Positions 2 through 27,938 are shown, counted from the first letter of the stretch. The stretch: DNA of 64,000 nucleotides from Actinomycetota bacterium (GCA_014239265.1 JAAZZH010000002.1:49554-113553), one strand, 5' to 3'. Made by a program: numbers and translations. Notes: generated from the letters alone by a model not told the origin.

Positions 2-661
2 TCCGAAAAACACAACACTTTACTGGTTCAAGAAGAAGGCTTAACTTTACCCTTCATTATTTTCGATGAAGAAAATGGAATCAAGATTTCTGAATATTAC
101 GAGATATACACCTATAAAGATAAAGACTTTAAAGATCCTGTTTTAAGAAACAATGCATTTCAAGAGCTTAAGAAGCTTCACAATTCCGAGATTGTTTTTC
201 AAAACAACTTTAAACCAACAGAAGTTTTTATAAGTATTACAGATAAGTCAAATCCCCTAGAAGAAGAGGCAAAAGAAGTGGGTCTTCAGGTAGTCCAAAA
301 ATTAAATGAAATAGGACTAGAGGAGAAGCCATGTCACCAAGATTTATACTCAAGAAATTTTGTTATCCATAAAGACAAAACTCTTCTCATTGATTGGGAA
401 TACTCATCAATGGGAGATAGCTATTTTGATTATGCTGATTTATTCTGGCAAAACAATTTTGAAACTGAGATAGATTTAAAAAATAAATCTTTAGACGAAC
501 TTGGAATCTCAACTGCGGATGAAATCGAGAAATTTGAGTATTTTGAAATACTATCAATGATTACATGGGGTTTATGGGCTATGCGTAGATCCCCATATGA
601 TAATGATGGGAAAATGTCATTAAATAAAGCATTAGATAAAGCCAACAATAAAAAACCTTAA
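2..661 (+). CDS. Choline/ethanolamine-kinase-like phosphotransferase (APH superfamily), 5' end outside the window
   Basis: Frame is open from the window edge to TAA 659-661; the ORF track only starts at an internal GTG at 278. Catalytic-loop motif CHQDLYSRNFV and ChoK-type motif LIDWEYSSMGDSYFDYA. Confidence 0.6.
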   Translation, partial: SEKHNTLLVQEEGLTLPFIIFDEENGIKISEYYEIYTYKDKDFKDPVLRNNAFQELKKLHNSEIVFQNNFKPTEVFISITDKSNPLEEEAKEVGLQVVQKLNEIGLEEKPCHQDLYSRNFVIHKDKTLLIDWEYSSMGDSYFDYADLFWQNNFETEIDLKNKSLDELGISTADEIEKFEYFEILSMITWGLWAMRRSPYDNDGKMSLNKALDKANNKKP

Positions 662-1720: not shown

Positions 1721-3787
1721 CTAATTTGTTAGTTTTCTTGAAGAGTTCAAGACTACTGAAATACTAGACATAGCCATTGCTAAGGCTCCCAACTTAGGAG
1801 AGATGCTTCCGGCAACAGCAATTGGAATCATAAGACTGTTGTAGACAAATGCAAGAAATAAATTTTGCCTAACCCTTCTACTACTTGTTACGGCTAAATC
1901 TCTTATATTAAGAATTTTTTCAATTCCACCTTCATGAATAACTATATCACTAGAAGCTTGTGCGATTTGGCTACTTATTGAAGTAGTAATGGCAACATCT
2001 GCTTGTTGCAGTGAAGGGGAGTCGTTAACTCCATCACCTATAAAAATAACACCTTCAGTTTCTTGAATAGCCTTCACATGGGCAAGCTTATCTTCGGGAG
2101 CTTGACTCCCTAATGCATTCTTAATACTTAACTCTTTTGCAAGAAGAGAAACTTTCTCTGAGCTATCACCTGATAAAATTAAAATCTCATAGTATTTTTT
2201 AATCTCAGTTATTAAATCTTGATCTACTGTTAAGTCTTCTTCAAGATGAATGTAGGCTTGTTGGTTATCAATTTTTACTTCAAGCACATTCTCGATTTCA
2301 TTTTTACCGACAATGCTAACATCAAGCCCGTTGACTGATCCATGAATTCCAGATCCGATGTCTTCTTTGACATTCTCTGAAGAAAAAAAAGACAAATTTC
2401 TTCTTTCTGATTCTAAGAGTAAACTTTTTGCGATAGGATGATTTGACCTTATCTCCAAGCTTGCAACGTATGATAAAATCTCATTTTCTGATAATTTGGT
2501 ATTTTCGGTGTCTATTTTTTTTATGCTAAAAATGCCAGACGTAAGAGTTCCAGTTTTATCAAATATAATTTTATTTATTTTTTTTACGTTTTGTAATTTA
2601 TCAAAATTTTTAAAAAGAAATCCATCTCGATAACCCAAGGTGGAAGCTTTATATAATGTTATCGGAGTGGCTAAGCCTAGTGCACATGGGCAAGCAATTA
2701 CTAGGACAGAGATTGCGATTTCTAATGATCTCATCAAATCAGTACCTTCTAATAAATACCGATACAAAAAAGTAGACATACTTAAAAGAAGAATTCCTGG
2801 AACGAAAAATTGAGTTATCCTATCAAGAGTTTTTTGAATAGATGGAGTTGAAGATTGTGCCTCTAAAATAAGTTGTTCTATAAAGTCATATGTCGAAACA
2901 CCTCCATCTTTAACTTCAACTTCTATATATCCATCTAAATTAATACTTCCAGCCAGAACACCATCTCCGGTTTTTTTATTAATTGGCTTTGACTCACCTG
3001 TAAGGAAGTCTTCATTAGTGGAGGAGGATCCAGCAGTAATAATTCCGTCAATCGGAATAATTTCACCTGGAGAAACGCCAATAAAGTCTCCACCATTTAA
3101 ATCTGATACTTTCTTCACCATAATCTTTCCATTGGATAATAATTTGGCATATTGGGGCTTCGAATTTTTAATTGCTTCAGATACATCGATAGAGTTTTGT
3201 ATTGAAATATCTTCAACTGCCTTACCAAATAGTACAAATGAAATTATGTAAGCTCCTGCATCAAGGAACATATCACTATTGCTAGAGGGGAGAAGAGAGA
3301 CTGCAACAGAACTTAAGCTTCCAAGAGATACCAGTGTGTCCATATTAAATTCAAAATGAGATATTTTTCTAACTGCTGAAATATGAAAACGTCTACCGAA
3401 TAGAAATATGACGGTGAAACCGAGCAAATATGCTAAAAATGAATTATTAGCATTAAACGCTTGAGAGACACCTACGGAGAAAGCTAGGGAAGAAAAAGGT
3501 ATAAGGAAAGTTTTACTGTAGTTTTCTTTTTCAGGAACTTTATTATCTGTAACTTTTGCTGAGTACCCAATAGCACTAATTTTTTCTATAACTTTATCAA
3601 CATTAAAATCTTTATCAGATTTAATTACTGCCTTTTTTAAAGGAAAATTTACAGAAACTGATTCTATTGATTCATTTTTCGATATGACTCTCTCTATTCT
3701 TGCAGCACAGGCCGCGCAAGTCATACCATCTAGGTCGAGTGATACTGTATTGCTATTTTGAGACAACAGAGTAGCCTTGTTCGTCAA
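1721..3787 (-). CDS. copA: Copper-translocating P1B-type ATPase
   Basis: N-terminal HMA domain GMTCAACAARIE, membrane CPC motif (VIACPCALGLATP), phosphorylation site DKTGTLT, SNHP and GDGVNDSP motifs. TTG start; overlaps copZ by 35 nt, so the exact start is uncertain. Confidence 0.9.
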   Translation of the reverse strand: MTNKATLLSQNSNTVSLDLDGMTCAACAARIERVISKNESIESVSVNFPLKKAVIKSDKDFNVDKVIEKISAIGYSAKVTDNKVPEKENYSKTFLIPFSSLAFSVGVSQAFNANNSFLAYLLGFTVIFLFGRRFHISAVRKISHFEFNMDTLVSLGSLSSVAVSLLPSSNSDMFLDAGAYIISFVLFGKAVEDISIQNSIDVSEAIKNSKPQYAKLLSNGKIMVKKVSDLNGGDFIGVSPGEIIPIDGIITAGSSSTNEDFLTGESKPINKKTGDGVLAGSINLDGYIEVEVKDGGVSTYDFIEQLILEAQSSTPSIQKTLDRITQFFVPGILLLSMSTFLYRYLLEGTDLMRSLEIAISVLVIACPCALGLATPITLYKASTLGYRDGFLFKNFDKLQNVKKINKIIFDKTGTLTSGIFSIKKIDTENTKLSENEILSYVASLEIRSNHPIAKSLLLESERRNLSFFSSENVKEDIGSGIHGSVNGLDVSIVGKNEIENVLEVKIDNQQAYIHLEEDLTVDQDLITEIKKYYEILILSGDSSEKVSLLAKELSIKNALGSQAPEDKLAHVKAIQETEGVIFIGDGVNDSPSLQQADVAITTSISSQIAQASSDIVIHEGGIEKILNIRDLAVTSSRRVRQNLFLAFVYNSLMIPIAVAGSISPKLGALAMAMSSISVVLNSSRKLTN

Positions 3788-3956
3788 GTAACGACTCTAT
3801 ATTTTTTAATTCGACACCATCAGATACAGTTAGAGAAACATTTTTAGTTTCGATATTTATATCTAAATTAGATACACCTGTTACATCCAGAGCTTTTTCG
3901 ATTGTTTCTTTACAATGCCCACAACTTATCTCTGGTACAGTGAAATTTAACTCCAT
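3753..3956 (-). CDS. copZ: Copper chaperone, heavy-metal-associated domain protein
   Basis: 67 aa with the CGHCKETIEKAL (CxxC) HMA motif, immediately upstream of copA on the same strand. Confidence 0.8.
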   Translation of the reverse strand: MELNFTVPEISCGHCKETIEKALDVTGVSNLDINIETKNVSLTVSDGVELKNIESLLDEQGYSVVSK

Positions 3957-4017
3957 AATGTTACATTAATATAATTTGGTTTTTAAACTATTTAGGTATT
4001 TGGGATGTTATTTAGAA

Positions 4018-4212
4018 TTAAGCAGTTTCTTGTAGAATACGTCCTCTTACTCTAGGGTATTTTACGGGAGCGTGATTAAAACAATGATCTCTTTTGTTAT
4101 ATATGCTAAGTTTTGTGCTGCATGATTCGTCTTTGCACACTCTGCCTTGGTCAAAACTTTTAGAAGGCCTTATACCGCCTTTAATTTGACTTGCTTTTAG
4201 TCCGTCAGTCAT
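4018..4212 (-). CDS. Small basic Cys3-His protein (C-x4-C-x12-C-x2-H), function unknown; paralog of 27572..27775
   Basis: 64 aa, AAGGA Shine-Dalgarno upstream of the ATG. Shares GRVC..SC.T..SIYNK...CF.H.PV.YPRVRG with the ORF upstream of dnaK. Shared residues use different synonymous codons (GRVC = ggc aga gtg tgc here, ggt cgt gtt tgt there), which indicates protein-level selection. Confidence 0.7.
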   Translation of the reverse strand: MTDGLKASQIKGGIRPSKSFDQGRVCKDESCSTKLSIYNKRDHCFNHAPVKYPRVRGRILQETA

Positions 4213-4228
4213 TTCTTTCCTTTTTACT

Positions 4229-4246
4229 TTGTGAATATATTCACAA
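4229..4246. promoter_or_regulatory. Perfect 18-bp palindrome containing a consensus CRP/FNR-family site (TGTGA-N6-TCACA)
   Basis: TTGTGAATATATTCACAA read directly from the sequence. Lies 17-34 nt upstream of the ATG of the small Cys3-His ORF and 37 nt downstream of the M3 peptidase stop. The only perfect TGTGA-N6-TCACA I found in the window. Confidence 0.45.
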
Positions 4247-4282
4247 GGGTAACAACATTATTCACGGGATGCAAGTTTTTCT

Positions 4283-6184
4283 TCAAAAATTACCCAATTT
4301 TTTTTGGTTCAAAAATGCTTCATCATTCCACTTTCTACCAAGAAAGTCTTCAACCATTTCTTCTGCACCCTTGGAACCACCAACTGAGAGAATTTTAGTT
4401 TTATACTCAATGCCAACCTCTTTTGACAAGACGCCTTCATCCTCAAATCTGCTAAATAAATCATCACCAATTATATCGGCCCACAAGTAACCATAATAAG
4501 CCGCATCGTATCCTCCCAACAAATGTCCAAAAGCACCAAGATGGTTAGTGTCGTTGGGATAATTTATTGTTGTTACAATTTGAGACTCTTGTTCAATTTC
4601 ATCTAGCGAATCATTAAAATTTATTCCATGTAAATGTTGATCAGCTAGCCCAAACGAAATTTGACGAAGGGTCAGTAAGCTAATTCCTATATTTTTTGAG
4701 GAGTTTAACCTTACGCACAGATCATGATCTAGTGTTTCTCCAGTATCAATATGCTTCGAGAACCTTTTTAAGCATTCACTCTTCCATACCCAGTGTTCCA
4801 TGATTTGACTTGGTGCTTCAACAAAATCCCATTCAACATTTGCTCCCAAAAAACGAGCAAATTTTGACTTTCCAATTCCGTTATGAAGAACATGGCCAAA
4901 TTCATGAAAAAGTGTTTCTACTTCATCAAAAGTCATGAGACCATTACCCGTATTTGGATTTGGGAAGTTAGCTACCATTGAACAAACTGGAAGGTTCATT
5001 TCATCTGCACTACCTGGTGAAATATCAAAAACCGCTGCATGGGTGTACTTTCCCTCTCTTGGGTACATGTCTAAATAAAAATAAGCCATTTTTTTATTAT
5101 TCTGATCTGAGATCGACCAAAGTTCAACATCTTCATGCCAGGCTGTACGAGAGTCTTCTTGATTAATAGAGATTTCAAAAACATCTTCACATATAGAGAA
5201 CATGGCTTCTTTTACATTGTGGATATAGAAATACTTTTTTATCTCATTATTATCAACCTGGCTCTGTTTATTCCTTTTTTTTGTAATAAAATATCTAATA
5301 TCCCAAGGAGCTATATCTGAGGGTTCAATATTGTCAGTTGCTAACTCTACTTTTTCATTTTGTGCAGCCTTTTGTAATTTAGGAACTAAATTGTCATACA
5401 TTTTTACGACATTTTCTGGACTTTTCGCCATTCTGTATTGAAGTCTATATTCTGCCCATGTATTAAAACCAAATAGGGTTGCTTTTTCATTTCTTAAAGC
5501 GACCGCTTCTTTTAAAATAGGTGAATTTTCCAATACTGCTCTATTATTAAATGCCTTCCACACTTTTTCTCTTGAATCACGAATCTGACAATTTTCTAAA
5601 ACTGCATTTATATCAGGATAAGCCATTGTCACAATGAAGTTTTCTTCTTCTTTTCTGAAATTATTCATTTCATCGATGCTCAAACCCTTTAATTGAGACT
5701 TACTCAGTATTACTTCAGACTTATCAGCTGCAATATTTTTCGAAAAATCAATTTCAAGATCAATTAATTTTTTTTCTATTTCAATTAAACGTGTTTTTTT
5801 ATCATGATCTAATTCATGTCCAGCATCAATGAAGTCTCTTATAACCTCATTAAAGTATTTGACTGATTCTTTATCCAAAGTATTTGTTTTGATTGATTTG
5901 AATTTTTCATAAAGCTCTATATCTGTTGTAACCTCTAATAAAAAATTTTCAATAATTGACTCTGCCTTATTGCTATAGTCTCTAATATCTTTTTCTTTGC
6001 TAACATCTGCCATAAAAGCTACTCTTCCAGATAAATCTGAAAGAGTTCTCTCAAATAAATCAAACAAATCTAGAGATGGGGTATCTTCATTTTTAATCTT
6101 CTGTATTTGCTCAAGACCAACTTTTAAAGTATTTTTTATATCATTTTCTAAATCTATTTTTGTTATTGCTGAATAATCAAACAT
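4283..6184 (-). CDS. M3-family zinc oligopeptidase (thimet oligopeptidase / Dcp-like)
   Basis: 633 aa, HEFGH zinc motif (LFHEFGHVLH) followed by a downstream Glu-containing region; length and layout typical of peptidase family M3. GGAG upstream of the start. Confidence 0.85.
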   Translation of the reverse strand: MFDYSAITKIDLENDIKNTLKVGLEQIQKIKNEDTPSLDLFDLFERTLSDLSGRVAFMADVSKEKDIRDYSNKAESIIENFLLEVTTDIELYEKFKSIKTNTLDKESVKYFNEVIRDFIDAGHELDHDKKTRLIEIEKKLIDLEIDFSKNIAADKSEVILSKSQLKGLSIDEMNNFRKEEENFIVTMAYPDINAVLENCQIRDSREKVWKAFNNRAVLENSPILKEAVALRNEKATLFGFNTWAEYRLQYRMAKSPENVVKMYDNLVPKLQKAAQNEKVELATDNIEPSDIAPWDIRYFITKKRNKQSQVDNNEIKKYFYIHNVKEAMFSICEDVFEISINQEDSRTAWHEDVELWSISDQNNKKMAYFYLDMYPREGKYTHAAVFDISPGSADEMNLPVCSMVANFPNPNTGNGLMTFDEVETLFHEFGHVLHNGIGKSKFARFLGANVEWDFVEAPSQIMEHWVWKSECLKRFSKHIDTGETLDHDLCVRLNSSKNIGISLLTLRQISFGLADQHLHGINFNDSLDEIEQESQIVTTINYPNDTNHLGAFGHLLGGYDAAYYGYLWADIIGDDLFSRFEDEGVLSKEVGIEYKTKILSVGGSKGAEEMVEDFLGRKWNDEAFLNQKKLGNF

Positions 6185-23739: not shown

Positions 23740-24129
23740 TTATGGGGTTCTTCTAATTGTTTTCTCAGTTTTTTTTACTATTTCATTTTTGTAGCTTTGA
23801 TGAATTTCTTTCTCTTTGGTTTTAGAATCAATTTTTTGGTTTGAAATTTCATTTTCTAAAGAAATAATCTTATTCTGAAGTTCTTCAATTTTATCTCTCA
23901 TCTCATAAATTATTTTTATTCCGTCTAAATTGATTCCTCTTTGAGATAAATCCTGAATTTGAATTAGTTTATCTATATCACCTTGAGAGTATCTTCTAGT
24001 TCCTCCACCAGTTCTATAAGGTTTGATAAGCCCTTTTTCTTCATAACTTCTTATAGTTTGCTGGTGTATGCCCGAAAGCGTAGAAGCTACTGATATAAAA
24101 TAAATCGCAGTAGAACTTTCTCTATTCAT
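23740..24129 (-). CDS. hspR: Heat-shock transcriptional repressor HspR (MerR family)
   Basis: MerR-type HTH (ISVASTLSGIHQQTIRSYEEKGLIKPYRTGGGTRRYS) and last position in a dnaK-grpE-dnaJ operon. I prefer ATG 24129 (8-nt overlap with dnaJ) over the upstream TTG at 24162 used by the ORF track. Confidence 0.8.
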   Translation of the reverse strand: MNRESSTAIYFISVASTLSGIHQQTIRSYEEKGLIKPYRTGGGTRRYSQGDIDKLIQIQDLSQRGINLDGIKIIYEMRDKIEELQNKIISLENEISNQKIDSKTKEKEIHQSYKNEIVKKTEKTIRRTP

Positions 24130-25201
24130 ATAAATAATCTCTAGGAGTGTCTCCAGATTCAAATTGGTCTCTAAAGCTTTCCAAGTGTTTTTTAGCTGAT
24201 CTTGAAAGATTTTGTGGGGGATTTAAATAAACTTTTACATACAAATCTCCTGATCTCCTTCCTTGAGGAGTAATTCCTTCACCCTTAATTTTAAAAGTTT
24301 TACCACTGGGTGTTCCAGAAGGAATTTTAAGTGATATTTGTTTTTCTAAGGTTGGAATTTTAATTGTTGCACCTAATGCTGCTTCTGTAAATAGAAGTGG
24401 GACTTCTAACACTAAGTCACTACCACTTCTTTTAAAATATTTATGTGGCTCAACAGCTATTTGTACAAGCAAGTCCCCATCTGGAGCACCATTGTCACCT
24501 GTACCGCCATACCCACGAAGTCTGATAACTGTTCCATTATCTACACCGGCAGGAATCTTTACTTTGATTGTTTCACTCTTGATTACAACCCCTTGTGCTT
24601 TACAAGTTTTACACTGCTTGTCTATAACACTTCCCTGACCTCTACATGCTTGACATGGCTGTGCAAAGGAGAAAAAACCCTGATTTGAAGCTGTTTGACC
24701 CGAACCTCCACAAATATTACATGTATGATATGCAGTTCCATTTTCTGAACCATTCCCCCTGCAGTCTGAACAGGCAACCTCTTTCCTTAGTGGAACATTT
24801 GTTTCTAAACCAGATGCAGATTCTACAAATGAGATAGTTAAATTAGTTTGATAACTCTGGCCTTTCCTTCTTCCAGCTCCACCAAAACCAAAAATATCCC
24901 CTAAATTACCAAATATATCTCCAAGATCTTCGGCGTTGAATCCACCACCTTGACCGCTAAAAGCTGATGGCCCCATAGCCCGTACTTGATCATATTCCTG
25001 TCGCTTTTGCTCATCAGTAAGGATAGAACTAGCTTCGGATATATCTTTAAATTTTTTCTCAGCTTCTGGATCACCTGGATTAAGGTCTGGATGATTTTCC
25101 CTAGCTAACTTTTTGTAGTTTTTCTTTATTTCATCTATTGATGCATTCTGAGAGACACCAAGGACTTTATAAAAATCTTTTTCTAACCAGTCTCTATTCA
25201 C
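24122..25201 (-). CDS. dnaJ: Chaperone DnaJ
   Basis: J-domain with HPD (ENHPDLNP), G/F-rich region, four CxxCxGxG zinc-finger repeats (CSDCRGNG, CNICGGSG, CQACRGQG, CKTCKAQG). Confidence 0.95.
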   Translation of the reverse strand: MNRDWLEKDFYKVLGVSQNASIDEIKKNYKKLARENHPDLNPGDPEAEKKFKDISEASSILTDEQKRQEYDQVRAMGPSAFSGQGGGFNAEDLGDIFGNLGDIFGFGGAGRRKGQSYQTNLTISFVESASGLETNVPLRKEVACSDCRGNGSENGTAYHTCNICGGSGQTASNQGFFSFAQPCQACRGQGSVIDKQCKTCKAQGVVIKSETIKVKIPAGVDNGTVIRLRGYGGTGDNGAPDGDLLVQIAVEPHKYFKRSGSDLVLEVPLLFTEAALGATIKIPTLEKQISLKIPSGTPSGKTFKIKGEGITPQGRRSGDLYVKVYLNPPQNLSRSAKKHLESFRDQFESGDTPRDYLYE

Positions 25202-25727
25202 TGTGGACTTTTACCATTGCCGGTCGTAGTAGTCGACCATCTATTTCATAACCTTTTCTGAGGACCTCACCAACTAATTCTATATCACCTTCACCTGATT
25301 GCTCAACAGCTTCATGATAGGAGGGGTCAAAAGGTTCTCCAGTGCCAGGCACTTCTTTTACATTGAATGTATCAAGAAAAACTTGAGTCATTTTATAAAG
25401 AGCCTCTATTTCTTTCGGGGTACCATCTTGATTCATTGCAATCTCAAAATTATCTATTAGAGGAAGTAGTGTAGATATAATCATTGAAAGAGAAGATACC
25501 ATACTCATACTCTTTTCTTTTTCAGCTCTTTTTTTAAAATTTTCAAAATCTGCTGCAAGTCTTAAGTAATCATCTTTAATTTTTTCATATTGCTCTAAAG
25601 GAACCGAATGAACTTCCTCATCATTGATAGTCTCTTCTGAAACCTCTTCTTCTGAAACCTCTTCTTCTGAAACCTCTTCTTCTGAAACCTCTATATCTTC
25701 AGGATCAAGGGTTTCACCACTATTCAT
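25194..25727 (-). CDS. grpE: Nucleotide exchange factor GrpE
   Basis: 177 aa. GrpE core ([12 protein letters not shown] ... [16 protein letters not shown]) with an acidic repeat-containing N-terminus. Overlaps dnaJ and dnaK by 8 nt each. Confidence 0.9.
25632..25692. repeat. In-frame 15-nt tandem repeat (three perfect units plus partial flanks) in the grpE 5' region
   Basis: Unit CTCTTCTTCTGAAAC repeats perfectly at 25644-25658, 25659-25673 and 25674-25688. Encodes (EEVSE)n. Confidence 0.9.
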
Positions 25728-27537
25728 CTTCTTCTACAACTTCGCCGTCAACAACATCTTCATTTTCTGTGTCTTCAGAAGATGTATTTTCTGTATCTTG
25801 TTGTGCCTCAGCATAGAGCTTCTCAGCGAATGATTGACTTGATTTTGTTAGTTCCTCAATAGAATTTTTGATTTCATCAAGAGTAGCTTCTTCATTTTCA
25901 AGCACCTTAGAAAGAGCGTCCTTGCCATCAGTCATAGCTGTAATCTCTTCTTCAGTAGCTTTATCTTTATTTTCCTCAAGCATTTTTTCAGTAGAAGTAA
26001 CCATACCTTCAGCTAAGTTCCTAGTTTCAATAAGTTCTTTTTTCTGAGCATCTTCATTTGCATGAGTCTCAGCATCCTTAATCATTCTTTCTATTTCATC
26101 ATCCTCAAGTGCAGTTCCACCAGTGATGGTAATATTCTGCTCTTTACCAGTACCAAGATCTTTTGCATTCACATTAACAATTCCATTTGCATCAATATCG
26201 AATGTAACCTCAATTTGAGGGGTACCCTGCTTAGCAGATGGTATTTCAGTTAGTTTAAATTTACCTAGTGATTTATTACCCGAAGCCATTTCTCTTTCTC
26301 CTTGAAGAACATGGATTTCAACTTCTGTTTGACCATCTTCAGCAGTAGTAAATGTTTCAGATCTCTTAGTAGGAATTGTTGTGTTTCTTTCAATCATCTT
26401 TGCAACAATTCCACCTTTAGTCTCAACTCCTAGGGTCAATGGTGTAACATCAAGGAGTAATACATCTTTAACATCACCTTTTAATACACCTGCTTGAATA
26501 GCTGCTCCAGATGCAACTACTTCATCAGGATTGACTCCTTTGTGGGGATCTTTTCCAGTCATGGCTTTAACTAGAGCTTGGATAGATGGAATTCTTGTTG
26601 ATCCACCAACTAAAATTATATGATCAATATCTGAGAATGATAGACCTGCATCATCAATAGCCTTATTTACTGGTTCTTTTGTTCTATCTACTAAATCAGA
26701 AGTAATTTTTTCAAATTCACTTCTAGATAATTTTTCTAGTAAATGTTGTGGACCAGCATCATTAGCAGTAATAAAGGGTAAATTAATTTCTGTTTCGCTT
26801 GTTGAGGAAAGTTCAATTTTTGCTTTCTCTGCACCTTCTTTTATTCTTTGCATTGCCATCTTGTCACTTGAAATATCAATACCGGTTGATGATTTAAACT
26901 TTTCAACCAACCAATCCATTACTTTTTGGTCCCAATCATCACCACCAAGTTTAGAATCACCGGCTGTTGATTTCACCTCAAAGACACCTTCTGAAATTTC
27001 TAATACTGAAACGTCAAATGTTCCACCACCTAAGTCATAGACTAATATTTTTTGGTCTTCGCTATTTTCTAAACCATAAGCTAAAGACGCAGCAGTAGGT
27101 TCATTGATAATTCTTAATACATTTAGGCCTGCTATTTTCCCTGCCTCTTTTGTAGCCTGACGTTCAGCATCGTTAAAATATGCTGGAACAGTAATTACAG
27201 CTTCTGTCACATCTTCACCAAGGTAGGCTTCTGCATCTCTCTTTAATTTTTGTAAAATTCTTGCTGATATTTCTTGAGGTGTGTATTCACTTCCTTCAAA
27301 TTCTTGCTTCCAAGAGGTGCCTATCTCTCTCTTAATCGACCTTATTGTGTTATCAGGATTTGTTATTGCCTGCCTTTTAGCAAGTTCCCCAACAAGAACC
27401 TCTTCACCTTTAAATGCAACAATTGAAGGTGTAGTTCTATTTCCTTCTGCGTTTGCTACTACGGCGGGTTCGCCACCTTCTAATACTGCAACAACACTGT
27501 TTGTTGTTCCTAAATCAATTCCTACTGCTTTTCCCAT
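25720..27537 (-). CDS. dnaK: Chaperone DnaK (Hsp70)
   Basis: 605 aa. [17 protein letters not shown] and other canonical Hsp70 motifs. Confidence 0.97.
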
Positions 27538-27571: not shown

Positions 27572-27775
27572 TTAAATTTTTGGTTCTTGTTCTCTTGACA
27601 AATGTCCTCTAACCCTTGGATAGGAGACTGGAGAATGCAAGAAGCAATACTTTTTCTTGTTATAGATACTTATTTGAGTTTCACAAGATGAAAACTCACA
27701 AACACGACCAGATGTATATTTTTTTGATCGCCTAACTCCAGGTTTTACTGAAGAAGCTGTTAATGTACCACTCAT
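27572..27775 (-). CDS. Small basic Cys3-His protein (C-x4-C-x12-C-x2-H), first ORF of the dnaK operon; paralog of 4018..4212
   Basis: 67 aa, AAGGA Shine-Dalgarno. 34 nt upstream of dnaK on the same strand. Shares the GRVC..SC.T..SIYNK...CF.H.PV.YPRVRG core with the copper-locus paralog. Confidence 0.7.
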
Positions 27776-27811
27776 TATTATCCTTTCTTATCTATGTTAT
27801 ATTATACATAT

Positions 27812-27835
27812 AATCTAAGTATAATTACTTAGATT
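27812..27835. promoter_or_regulatory. Inverted repeat AATCTAAGT-N6-ACTTAGATT, candidate HspR operator (HAIR-like) overlapping a -10-like hexamer
   Basis: Perfect 9-bp arms read directly from the sequence, centred about 48 nt upstream of ATG 27775. On the coding (minus) strand the spacer region reads ..AATTATACTT.., containing TATACT. Resembles but does not match the Streptomyces HAIR (CTTGAGT-N7-ACTCAAG). Confidence 0.45.
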
Positions 27836-27938
27836 TATATAAAATATAATATAGTTAGAAAATTATGCAAACTTTTCAATAATTTTTTCTATAAATCATA
27901 GTGATATACATTCTTTTTAATAGTGATAATATTAAATA

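What the first reader, a model, noticed from the sequence alone, without database searches (positions are those of the whole stretch)
4018..4212. Paralogous family of small Cys3-His proteins (second copy at 27572..27775)
Two 64/67-aa basic proteins share GRVC-x4-C-x-T-x2-SIYNK-x3-CF-x-H-x-PV-x-YPRVRG, a C-x4-C-x12-C-x2-H ligand pattern suggestive of a zinc (or copper) ribbon. Conserved residues use different synonymous codons in the two copies, and both have AAGGA ribosome-binding sites, so both look like genuine genes under protein-level selection. I cannot place them in a named family. Duplicates are unusual in a genome this compact. Both copies sit at the head of stress operons (copZ-copA and dnaK-grpE-dnaJ-hspR), which suggests a small regulator, metal sensor or co-chaperone.
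Basis: partly seen in the sequence, partly recalled or inferred. Interest (0 to 1): 0.65.

Follow-up and report, generated by a model that had tools for sequence, protein, structure and literature searches.

The report
Small zinc-knuckle stress protein family
The two small Cys3-His genes are real, strongly conserved paralogues of a large unnamed family of about 65-residue basic zinc-knuckle proteins. The family occurs in marine and soil Actinomycetota and some of their phages, and is wired into the heat-shock and thiol-oxidative stress regulons. Its biochemical job is still unknown.

Summary
ORFs 4018..4212(-) and 27572..27775(-) are 53% identical (E 1e-25). Both are under purifying selection across about 80 Ca. 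Actinomarina genomes (pN/pS 0.09-0.15).

They belong to a family of at least 1,151 50%-identity clusters with no Pfam, NCBIfam or PDB match. In 275 of 276 members the spacing is C-x4-C-x12-C-x2-H. Members have exactly three Cys, a median pI of 10 and a net charge of +8.

- **Copy B** is the first gene of an HspR-type dnaK-grpE-dnaJ-hspR operon. A HAIR-like palindrome is conserved in all 56 unique upstream sequences aligned.
- **Copy A** has its own promoter, followed by an invariant TGTGA-N6-TCACA palindrome. It is the orthologue of a gene that sits next to csoR-copZ-copA in most high-GC relatives, separated from it by a terminator. The window has lost csoR.
- **High-GC relatives** carry either a GGAACA-N16-CGTT (sigmaH/sigmaE-type) promoter (27 of 57 upstream regions versus fewer than 1 expected) or sit directly after a sigma/RsrA-like anti-sigma pair (five lineages).
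- **Phage-like contigs** also carry members.

Best reading: a stress-induced, Zn(Cys3His) nucleic-acid- or transcription-machinery-binding small protein, possibly redox- or copper-labile. The regulon wiring is well supported. The mechanism is inferred.

The parts
4018..4212 (-). Copy A: 64-aa basic (pI 9.8) Cys3-His zinc-knuckle protein. It is the orthologue of the csoR-copZA-linked gene of high-GC Acidimicrobiia.
   Evidence: ORF. Homologues at 55-68% identity in high-GC relatives. pN/pS 0.086. Ligands C26, C31, C44 and H47 are invariant.
4218..4222 (-). Ribosome-binding site AAGGA of copy A.
   Evidence: Sequence read.
4229..4246 (-). Perfect palindrome TTGTGAATATATTCACAA (CRP/GlxR-type TGTGA-N6-TCACA). 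It abuts the -10 element and is a putative repressor operator of copy A.
   Evidence: It is the only perfect TGTGA-N6-TCACA in the window. It is invariant in all 22 unique Actinomarina upstream sequences while the flanks vary. CRP consensus from PMC10187061. The binding protein was not identified.
4246..4274 (-). Putative sigmaA-type promoter of copy A: -35 TTGCAT (4269..4274), 17-nt spacer, -10 TACCCT (4246..4251, of the TAnnnT type).
   Evidence: TTGCA and TAnnnT are conserved at fixed spacing in the alignment of 22 loci. No TSS data.
27572..27775 (-). Copy B: 67-aa basic (pI 10.0) Cys3-His zinc-knuckle protein. It is the first gene of the dnaK-grpE-dnaJ-hspR operon.
   Evidence: ORF. Orthologues lie in the same position in the 57 genome loci L008-L064 plus L002-L004. 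dnaK follows after 18-35 nt with its own RBS and no terminator. pN/pS 0.10-0.155.
27781..27785 (-). Ribosome-binding site AAGGA of copy B.
   Evidence: Sequence read.
27813..27834 (-). Palindrome ATCTAAGT-N6-ACTTAGAT, resembling the HAIR operator of HspR. It lies between the -10 element and the RBS of copy B.
   Evidence: It is the only perfect match in the window. It is conserved in all 56 unique upstream sequences. More distant relatives have TCTTAGT-N7-ACT(A/T)AGA. HAIR consensus CTTGAGT-N7-ACTCAAG (PMC6102357). hspR (MerR family) closes the same operon.
27843..27871 (-). Putative sigmaA-type promoter of the copy B-dnaK operon: TTTGCA, 17-nt spacer, TATATT.
   Evidence: Promoter scan. TTTGCAT and TATATT are conserved across loci.
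23740..27537 (-). dnaK (25720..27537), grpE (25194..25727), dnaJ (24122..25201) and hspR (23740..24162), co-transcribed with copy B.
   Evidence: ORFs. Pfam assignments of the orthologues in L002-L004.
1721..3956 (-). copZ (3753..3956) and copA (1721..3787), downstream of copy A. No csoR lies between them and copy A, unlike in high-GC relatives.
   Evidence: ORFs. tblastn found no CsoR anywhere in the window. The relatives' arrangement is shown.

Best explanation
The two ORFs encode paralogous members of a large, unnamed family of about 65-residue, strongly basic proteins. These proteins fold around one Zn(Cys3His) knuckle (C-x4-C-x12-C-x2-H), flanked by a disordered basic N-terminal arm (R-P-S-K-x-F/Y) and a basic C-terminal P-R-x-R-G segment.

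The family is a component of the actinobacterial heat/thiol-oxidative stress response.
- In high-GC Acidimicrobiia it is transcribed from a sigmaH/sigmaE-type promoter, or together with the sigmaR/H - RsrA/RshA-like pair.
- In the streamlined Ca. Actinomarina, which keeps only two sigma factors, copy B has been placed under an HspR-type operator at the head of the dnaK operon.
- Copy A is placed under a sigmaA promoter with a CRP-type operator, next to copZ-copA.

The most likely mode of action is as follows. On stress the protein is made in quantity. It binds nucleic acid, or the transcription/translation machinery, through its basic and aromatic surface. The thiolate-rich zinc site is a possible point of inactivation or switching by oxidants or Cu(I).

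- **Shown:** the genes, the selection, ligand invariance, family size, synteny and promoter/operator conservation.
- **Inferred:** zinc binding, the identity of the regulators, and nucleic-acid or machinery binding.
- **Speculative:** redox or copper lability.
For: **Real genes and paralogy**
-.

**Family**
- 1,151 representative clusters at E<=1e-3, and 135 at E<=1e-10.
- Every member that carries a source name is called a hypothetical protein.
- Invariant in 79 sequences: R15, R24, C26, C31, S36, Y38, N39, C44, H47, P49, P53, R56 and G57.
- Spacing is 4/12/2 in 275 of 276 members; 269 of 276 have exactly 3 Cys; median pI 10.0; net charge +8.
- AF2 model with a 79-sequence alignment: mean pLDDT 76.7, core 86-88, with short beta bridges around the first two Cys, as in a zinc knuckle.

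**Stress wiring**
- GGAA[CT]-N16-18-[CG]GTT occurs in 27 of 57 unique upstream regions, against 0.3 (shuffles) and 0.7 (random windows) expected. In about 20 of them it ends 37-41 nt before the ATG (overall range 15-79; the 68-79 nt cases lie inside the upstream anti-sigma gene).
- The form matches GGAACA-N16-CGTT of the C. glutamicum dnaK, clgR and dnaJ2 sigmaH/sigmaE promoters (PMC10012870) and the M. tuberculosis SigH consensus GGAAYR-N17-GTT (PMC4803200).
- An ECF sigma - HxxxCxxC anti-sigma - small gene triad occurs in five lineages (GC 47-73%) with different downstream genes.
- Copy B lies behind a conserved HAIR-like palindrome at the head of dnaK-grpE-dnaJ-hspR in all loci.
- Actinomarinales have only 2 sigma factors and 29-48 paralogues per genome (PMC7771536). 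This explains the loss of the ECF promoter and makes retention of two copies notable.

**Phage copies**
- P0365 is BAR34125.1 from a uvMED phage. Loci L179-L183 and L187-188 look like phage: densely packed small ORFs, a PHROG exonuclease match and a weak tail-fibre match.
- The best BFVD fold matches are uncultured Caudovirales proteins.
Against: - No metal, nucleic-acid or protein binding was tested.
- Neither AF2 model found a solved-structure relative, so the fold assignment rests on the motif alone.
- The window itself has no sigmaH/E-type promoter in front of either copy. The regulon assignment for this organism therefore rests on the HspR-like and CRP-like palindromes, whose binding proteins are assumed.
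- The tight, long-range synteny with csoR-copZ-copA could mean a copper-specific role rather than a general stress role.
- Phage carriage and basic charge would fit a ribosome- or RNA-binding protein as well as a DNA- or RNAP-binding one.
Confidence: 0.5

Rival explanations
1. Copper-specific factor. The protein senses or buffers Cu(I) at its Cys3His site and regulates or assists copZ-copA. In Actinomarina, copy A would have taken over from the lost CsoR.
For: - Copy-A-type genes lie immediately beside csoR-copZ-copA in most of 80 metagenome loci and in L001, L005, L094 and L098.
- This includes variants where CsoR is replaced by a MerR-type regulator (L160, L173), is absent (L137-142, L161-178), or where the small gene is inverted in place (L098, L177).
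- The window has no csoR.
- Thiolate-rich sites bind Cu(I) (general knowledge).
Against: - In the high-GC relatives read directly (L001, L005-L007) a hairpin terminator follows the small gene. csoR then has its own promoter with a GC-rich CsoR-box-like palindrome. The two are therefore separate units.
- M3 peptidase and PAC2 are conserved on either side too. The link may be plain vertical synteny.
- No conserved palindrome precedes copZ in Actinomarina.
- Other family members sit at dnaK, after sigma/anti-sigma pairs, or in phages.
- No similarity to CsoR, HMA or TRASH/YHS domains.
Confidence: 0.12
2. Redox module of the sigmaR/H-RsrA pathway. It would be a zinc-thiolate switch protein that modulates the sigma/anti-sigma pair, for example as a zinc or disulfide relay or as an anti-anti-sigma factor.
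For: - The gene lies 28-112 nt after an RsrA/RshA-like HxxxCxxC anti-sigma gene in five divergent lineages.
- A sigmaH/E-type promoter is found elsewhere in the family.
- The Cys3His site is chemically like the ZAS Cys3His site (general knowledge).
Against: - Actinomarinales keep two copies although they have only two sigma factors, and no ECF sigma or ZAS gene is present in the window.
- Phages carry the gene without a sigma/anti-sigma pair.
- The strong positive charge is not explained.
Confidence: 0.13
3. Hsp70 escort or co-chaperone. A small zinc-finger partner of DnaK, analogous in role to mitochondrial Hep1/Zim17.
For: - Copy B is translated from the same mRNA as DnaK, directly upstream, in every Actinomarinales genome examined.
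Against: - Only the derived paralogue is dnaK-linked. 196 of 237 other family members are closer to copy A.
- Those of known context sit elsewhere.
- No DNL zinc-finger match.
- The high charge and the phage copies are unexplained.
Confidence: 0.07
4. Stress-specific ribosome- or RNA-binding protein. A zinc-knuckle nucleic-acid chaperone, or an accessory ribosomal protein made under heat or oxidative stress.
For: - About 65 aa, pI about 10, conserved aromatic and Arg residues, and almost no regular secondary structure in the AF2 model, as in small ribosomal proteins.
- Very low pN/pS.
- The SigH regulon of M. tuberculosis includes the zinc-binding ribosomal protein gene rpmE (PMC4803200).
Against: - No similarity to any ribosomal protein family.
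- Never found in ribosomal gene clusters in the loci examined.
- This rival overlaps with the best explanation and cannot be separated from it by sequence alone.
Confidence: 0.15

Closest known systems
First zinc site (Cys3His) of plant SBP-box domains, and the related EsV-1-7 and WRKY19 cysteine motifs
   Same: - The ligand order is the same: C-x4-C ... C-x2-H.
- The local pattern R-x-C-x4-C-x-(T/V)-x-L-(S/T)...Y...C-x2-H-A is similar.
- The context is basic.
- These were the best, though weak, profile matches: PDB 8j49 at E 0.41; Pfam EsV_1_7_cys at E 0.01 in 4 of 43 members; Zf_WRKY19 in 3 of 43.
   Different: - The loop is 12 residues, not 16, in 275 of 276 members.
- There is no second zinc site.
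- hhalign probability is only 15.5%.
- Those motifs are eukaryotic or from giant viruses, and in SBP they form part of a 76-aa two-zinc DNA-binding domain.
- This is a resemblance of motif. Membership was not shown.
RbpA (actinobacterial RNA-polymerase-binding protein, a sigmaR target in Streptomyces)
   Same: - A small actinobacterial protein under the thiol-oxidative sigma factor.
- The Streptomyces form binds zinc through Cys and His (from memory, not tested here).
- It has a basic linker.
   Different: - No sequence match (no Pfam hit).
- About half the length.
- No recognisable sigma-interaction domain.
ZAS anti-sigma factors RsrA/RshA
   Same: - A Cys3His-type zinc-thiolate site.
- Same operon in five lineages.
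- Same stress regulon.
   Different: - No HxxxCxxC motif.
- No zf-HC2 match.
- Basic instead of acidic or neutral.
- Present where no ECF sigma gene is nearby.
WhiB-like (Wbl) proteins
   Same: - Small Cys-rich actinobacterial regulators that are also carried by actinophages, including Actinomarinales phages (PMC7771536).
   Different: - Wbl proteins have four Cys holding a [4Fe-4S] cluster; this family has three Cys and one His.
- No Pfam Whib match.
CsoR / CopZ copper-homeostasis proteins
   Same: - Genomic neighbours in most Acidimicrobiia loci.
- Cys/His ligands.
   Different: - No homology.
- A different transcription unit.
- Paralogues and relatives occur in non-copper contexts.

Membership tests
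SBP-box / EsV-1-7 / Zf_WRKY19 Cys3His zinc motif | C-x4-C-x16-C-x2-H spacing | tested here: not met
   The spacing is C-x4-C-x12-C-x2-H in 275 of 276 members.
SBP-box / EsV-1-7 / Zf_WRKY19 Cys3His zinc motif | Significant profile match to the family model | tested here: not met
   The window proteins had zero Pfam hits at E<=10. The best member hits were E 0.01 (EsV_1_7_cys, 4 of 43) and 0.089 (Zf_WRKY19, 3 of 43). The PDB SBP chain scored E 0.41. hhalign probability was 15.5%.
SBP-box domain | A second zinc site (C-x2-C-x3-H-x11-C) and a domain of about 76 aa | tested here: not met
   Only 3 Cys in 269 of 276 members.
CsoR (Trns_repr_metal, PF02583) | Profile match and a helical Cu(I) C-H-C site | tested here: not met
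   No Pfam hit. True CsoR genes are separate neighbours in relatives.
HMA / CopZ metallochaperone (PF00403) | MxCxxC motif in a ferredoxin-like fold | tested here: not met
   No CxxC in the sequences and no Pfam hit.
ZAS anti-sigma (zf-HC2, PF13490) | HxxxCxxC motif | tested here: not met
   The motif is absent from the small proteins. It is present in the upstream neighbour gene in five lineages.
WhiB-like (PF02467) | Four conserved Cys (C-xn-C-x2-C-x5-C) for a [4Fe-4S] cluster | tested here: not met
   Three Cys plus one His. No Pfam hit.
RbpA (PF13397) | Profile match and a C-terminal sigma-interaction domain | tested here: not met
   No Pfam hit at E<=10. The protein ends about 15 residues after the zinc site.
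Hep1/Zim17 DNL zinc finger (PF05180) | Two CxxC pairs and a DNL motif | tested here: not met
   No CxxC and no Pfam hit.
SigH/SigR/SigE-type regulon (functional grouping) | GGAA(C/T)-N16-18-(C)GTT promoter at a suitable distance upstream | tested here: met
   Met for high-GC relatives: 27 of 57 unique upstream regions versus fewer than 1 expected, with about 20 of them 37-41 nt before the ATG. Not met for the two window copies, which have sigmaA-like promoters. Sigma dependence itself is not testable here.
HspR regulon | HAIR inverted repeat (CTTGAGT-N7-ACTCAAG) overlapping the promoter, with hspR in the operon | tested here: inconclusive
   Copy B is preceded by TCTAAGT-N6-ACTTAGA, 9 nt after the -10 element, conserved in all 56 unique sequences. 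An N7 version occurs in L002 and L062. hspR closes the operon. Each half-site matches 4-5 of 7 positions, and binding was not tested.
CRP/GlxR regulon | TGTGA-N6-TCACA site near the promoter | tested here: inconclusive
   A perfect site lies at 4230..4245, is unique in the window and is invariant in 22 Actinomarina sequences. Related GTGA-N6-TCAC sites occur in L098, L118 and L177. No crp gene was located, and binding was not tested.

The most novel reading that the evidence does not exclude
The family is a previously unrecognised class of global stress modulator in Actinomycetota. It would be a Zn(Cys3His) switch protein that binds DNA or RNA polymerase and retunes transcription when its zinc site is attacked by oxidants or Cu(I). 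That would make it functionally parallel to RbpA or WhiB. It has been captured by marine actinophages for host takeover.
Probability: 0.2. Interest if true: 0.75.

Novelty: new variant of a known kind. Interest (0 to 1): 0.55.

Why it matters
Ca. Actinomarinales are among the most streamlined and abundant marine bacteria. They have about 1,100 genes, two sigma factors and about 40 paralogues, yet they keep two copies of this 65-residue protein. One copy sits at the very front of the dnaK operon.

The same protein is wired to the sigmaH/R-RsrA system, or to a sigmaH/E promoter, across Acidimicrobiia. It lies beside the copper-efflux operon in most high-GC loci examined.

A conserved but unannotated member of the heat, thiol-oxidative and copper stress network would fill a gap in how these uncultured lineages, and their phages, manage stress. 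It would also add a bacterial Cys3His knuckle family to the protein-family databases.

Tried and rejected
- **Family libraries.** Pfam, NCBIfam and PHROG scans of both proteins gave nothing significant. PHROG's best hit was E 0.04.
- **Solved structures.** PDB sequence and profile searches gave nothing below E 0.19.
- **Fold searches.** Foldseek of both AF2 models against the PDB gave no match below E 6. BFVD gave only two short, marginal phage matches.
- **SBP homology.** hhalign against an SBP fragment gave 15.5% probability, so homology is not claimed.
- **Annotated phages and plasmids.** tblastn of family members against INPHARED phages and PLSDB plasmids found no match. The phage members are known only from metagenomic contigs.
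- **Related-locus searches.** Searches with the broad alignments A3 and A4 failed for lack of a conserved stretch.
- **Viral contigs with the high-GC alignment.** None found.
- **sigmaH/E motif in the window.** One chance-level hit, inside a coding region.
- **Rfam scan of the window.** Only a tRNA, so no known RNA element explains the conserved upstream blocks.
- **Palindrome TAATGTAACATTA before the window's copZ.** Considered as an operator and rejected, because it is not conserved in other Actinomarina genomes.
- **Reading copy B as a leader peptide or uORF of dnaK.** Rejected on family-wide ligand conservation and pN/pS.

Full report
**1. The observation**

Both ORFs exist on the minus strand at the stated coordinates: 4018..4212 (64 aa, copy A) and 27572..27775 (67 aa, copy B).
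- They align without gaps at 33/62 identities, E 1e-25.
- Of the 33 identical residues, 24 use different codons, and nucleotide identity is only 55%.
- Each has AAGGA 6-8 nt before the ATG.
- In all six frames of the 64-kb window, C-x4-C-x12-C-x2-H occurs only in these two ORFs.
- Pfam and NCBIfam return nothing even at E<=10.

The window comes from Ca. Actinomarina. A 97%-identical protein carries that name, and 80 matching genome loci are Actinomarina or Actinomarinales SAGs and MAGs.

**2. They are real genes**

Orthologues of both copies are found about 24 kb apart on the same contigs in many Actinomarina genomes.
- Among 23 unique copy A sequences, pN/pS is 0.086.
- Among 28 and 16 unique copy B sequences it is 0.155 and 0.096.
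- Synonymous divergence is about 0.55-0.6.

**3. The family**

A profile search of 1.84 billion representative proteins found 1,151 clusters at E<=1e-3 and 135 at E<=1e-10. Nearly all are 60-70 aa.

Every member that carries a source name is a hypothetical protein. The organisms named are Actinomycetota MAGs, mainly Acidimicrobiia. Two archaeon-labelled records look like binning errors. L071 encodes a protein identical to Actinomarina copy A.

In a 79-sequence alignment the invariant positions are R15, R24, C26, C31, S36, Y38, N39, C44, H47, P49, P53, R56 and G57.

Among 276 members:
- the spacing is 4/12/2 in 275;
- 269 have exactly three Cys;
- median pI is 10.0 and median net charge is +8.

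AlphaFold2 with that alignment gives mean pLDDT 76.7, and 86-88 for residues 21-50. The only regular structure is short beta bridges bracketing the first two Cys and in the PRVRG segment. That fits a zinc knuckle with extended basic arms.

No solved structure matches.

The nearest motif is the first Cys3His site of SBP domains and the EsV-1-7 and WRKY19 motifs. Those have a 16-residue loop, and hhalign probability is 15.5%. I treat this as a resemblance and do not claim membership.

**4. Copy B**

In the window, and in all copy B orthologue loci, the gene lies 18-35 nt upstream of dnaK. In the window the gap is 34 nt. dnaK has its own RBS and there is no terminator. grpE, dnaJ and a MerR-family hspR follow.

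The 56 unique upstream sequences share three elements in order:
- TTTGCAT;
- TATATT;
- nine bases later, the palindrome ATCTAAGT-N6-ACTTAGAT (window 27813..27834).

More distant low-GC relatives (L002, L062) have TCTTAGT-N7-ACT(A/T)AGA. This resembles the HspR operator HAIR, CTTGAGT-N7-ACTCAAG (PMC6102357).

So copy B is the first cistron of an HspR-type heat-shock operon. The operator assignment is an inference.

**5. Copy A**

Twenty-two unique Actinomarina upstream sequences vary freely except for a 29-nt block, TGTTAAGCTTGTGAATATATTCACAAAGT, and an upstream TTGCA. I read this as:
- -35 TTGCAT (4269..4274);
- a 17-nt spacer;
- -10 TAnnnT (4246..4251);
- immediately afterwards the perfect palindrome TTGTGAATATATTCACAA (4229..4246).

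Its core, TGTGA-N6-TCACA, is the CRP/GlxR consensus (PMC10187061). It is the only perfect site in the window. Its position suggests repression. Which protein binds it is unknown.

Downstream, 10 of the 22 sequences carry a clear hairpin terminator (AAGCCCCTA...TAGGGGCTTTTTT) before copZ. The window does not, and its gap to copZ is 61 nt.

**6. Copy A's relatives and the copper operon**

High-GC orthologues are 55-68% identical to copy A. They sit in the block M3 peptidase - small gene - csoR - copZ - copA - PAC2.

A census of 80 metagenome loci shows csoR starting about 260-300 nt after the zinc motif in most loci that have enough flank. The variants are:
- a MerR-type regulator instead of CsoR (L160, L173);
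- no regulator (L137-142 and the Actinomarinales-like L161-178);
- the small gene inverted in place (L098, L177);
- a few loci without cop genes.

In L001 and L005 a GC-rich hairpin terminator follows the small gene. csoR then has its own promoter region with a CCCCACC...GGTGGGG palindrome of the CsoR-box kind (the box assignment is from memory).

The two are therefore neighbours but separate units. The flanking M3 peptidase and PAC2 genes are conserved too, so the association may be inherited synteny. The window has no csoR anywhere.

**7. The stress-regulon link**

Upstream of the high-GC orthologues there is a recurrent GGGAACAAA-N13-GACGTTGA.
- The strict pattern GGAA[CT]-N16-18-[CG]GTT occurs in 27 of 57 unique upstream regions. 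Expected counts are 0.3 in shuffles and 0.7 in random windows of the same loci.
- In about 20 of them the motif ends 37-41 nt before the ATG. The overall range is 15-79 nt, and the 68-79 nt cases fall inside the upstream anti-sigma gene.
- Many other regions carry one-base variants (GGAAG, GGAAA).
- This matches the sigmaH/sigmaE promoter form of C. glutamicum: GGAACA-N16-CGTT for dnaK, clgR and dnaJ2 (PMC10012870).
- It also matches M. tuberculosis SigH: GGAAYR-N17-GTT (PMC4803200).

Independently, the gene lies 28-112 nt after a short HxxxCxxC anti-sigma gene of the RsrA/RshA kind.
- This holds in five lineages (GC 47-73%), whose small proteins are 49-68% identical.
- In the loci with enough flank (L090, L096, L185) an ECF sigma gene precedes the anti-sigma gene.
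- The downstream genes differ between lineages: cydABDC in some, and Zincin_2-tilS-hpt-folE in another.

Actinomarinales have only two sigma factors and 29-48 paralogues per genome (PMC7771536). That fits the replacement of the ECF promoter by sigmaA promoters with operators. It also makes the retention of two copies notable.

Copy B looks like the derived duplicate. Of 237 other members, 196 are closer to copy A, and copy B's best outside matches are A-type sequences.

**8. Phage copies**

The cluster containing P0169, P0364 and P0365 includes BAR34125.1 from an uncultured Mediterranean phage.
- Its loci are IMG/VR contigs and 28-44-kb contigs.
- They consist of dense small ORFs with a PHROG exonuclease match, an SLT lysozyme domain and a weak tail-fibre match.
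- A second phage-like group carries P0352.
- The top BFVD fold matches are uncultured Caudovirales proteins.
- Deposited phage genomes and plasmids gave no match.

**9. Interpretation**

Shown:
- a real, selected paralogue pair;
- a large unnamed family with an invariant Cys3His pattern and a basic character;
- conserved operator-like palindromes in Actinomarina;
- sigmaH/E-type promoters and sigma-antisigma linkage elsewhere;
- cop synteny;
- phage carriage.

Inferred:
- one zinc per protein;
- HspR and a CRP-type protein as the regulators in Actinomarina;
- induction by heat and thiol stress.

The most likely mechanism is a stress-induced protein that binds nucleic acid, or the transcription/translation machinery, through its Arg/Lys and aromatic surface (F/Y20, Y38, F/Y43, Y/F52, R-x-R-G). 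Its thiolate-rich zinc site would be a plausible target of oxidants or Cu(I).

The rivals are a copper-specific factor, a module of the sigma/anti-sigma switch, a DnaK escort, and a ribosome/RNA-binding protein. They are not excluded and are scored in the rival explanations.

**10. Novelty**

The fold class (a small zinc knuckle) and the regulons are known kinds. The family itself, its fixed 4/12/2 Cys3His pattern, its place in these regulons and its phage copies are not described in any library or paper I could search. I rate it a new variant of a known kind, of moderate interest.

Noticed in passing
window 3957..4017; compare L001 6196..6349 and L005 6199..6431: The window has no csoR between the small gene and copZ, nor anywhere else in its 64 kb. 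High-GC relatives have a terminator, a CsoR-box-like palindrome and csoR at this position. Actinomarinales-like metagenome loci (L161-L178) also lack csoR, so copZ-copA may be unregulated or differently regulated in this order.
   Followed up: partly
L179-L183 (gene at L181 8001..8183) and L187/L188 (gene at L187 5001..5201): Family members occur on phage-like marine contigs. One is deposited as a uvMED phage protein, BAR34125.1. They sit among small early-type genes next to an exonuclease. The hosts are not identified.
   Followed up: partly
L090 about 4907..4933, L096 about 3904..3930, L153 about 357..383: A GGAAC-N17-CGTT motif lies inside the 3' part of the RsrA-like anti-sigma gene, 68-79 nt before the small gene. 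It could be an internal sigmaH/E-type promoter, or simply a by-product of the conserved PPELF...L coding sequence.
   Followed up: no
L065-L067, L070, L074, L082, L084-L087: first ~80 nt after the copy A stop codon: About half of the Actinomarina genomes carry a GC-rich insert of about 70 nt here. It has a C-run, a short hairpin (AAATCTCCCCC..GAGATTT) and a terminator hairpin (AAGCCCCTA..TAGGGGCTT). The window lacks it. It is an unusual GC-rich element in a 33-35% GC genome.
   Followed up: no
L071 (NYXO01000052.1, labelled Methanobacteriota archaeon) and P0323 (labelled Halobacteriales archaeon): L071, an archaeon-labelled MAG record, encodes a protein identical to Actinomarina copy A and so looks like a binning error. 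P0323, labelled Halobacteriales archaeon, is a family member too; its locus was not examined, so misbinning there is only suspected.
   Followed up: partly
L098, L118 and L177, upstream of the small gene: GTGA-N6-TCAC palindromes overlap the -35 element of the ECF-type promoter (for example CGTGAAATATGTCACG in L177). The CRP-type site of Actinomarina copy A may therefore be older than the loss of the ECF promoter.
   Followed up: no
L160 and L173, about 340-360 nt after the zinc motif of the small gene: A MerR-family gene takes the place of csoR between the small gene and copZ-copA. tblastn matched it with the window's HspR as query. It is probably a CueR-like copper regulator.
   Followed up: no
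L184 4001..4207: One divergent member (P0094) sits in a mobile or defence-like region with a DDE transposase, a PhdYeFM antitoxin and a DNA methyltransferase. This differs from the stress contexts seen elsewhere.
   Followed up: no
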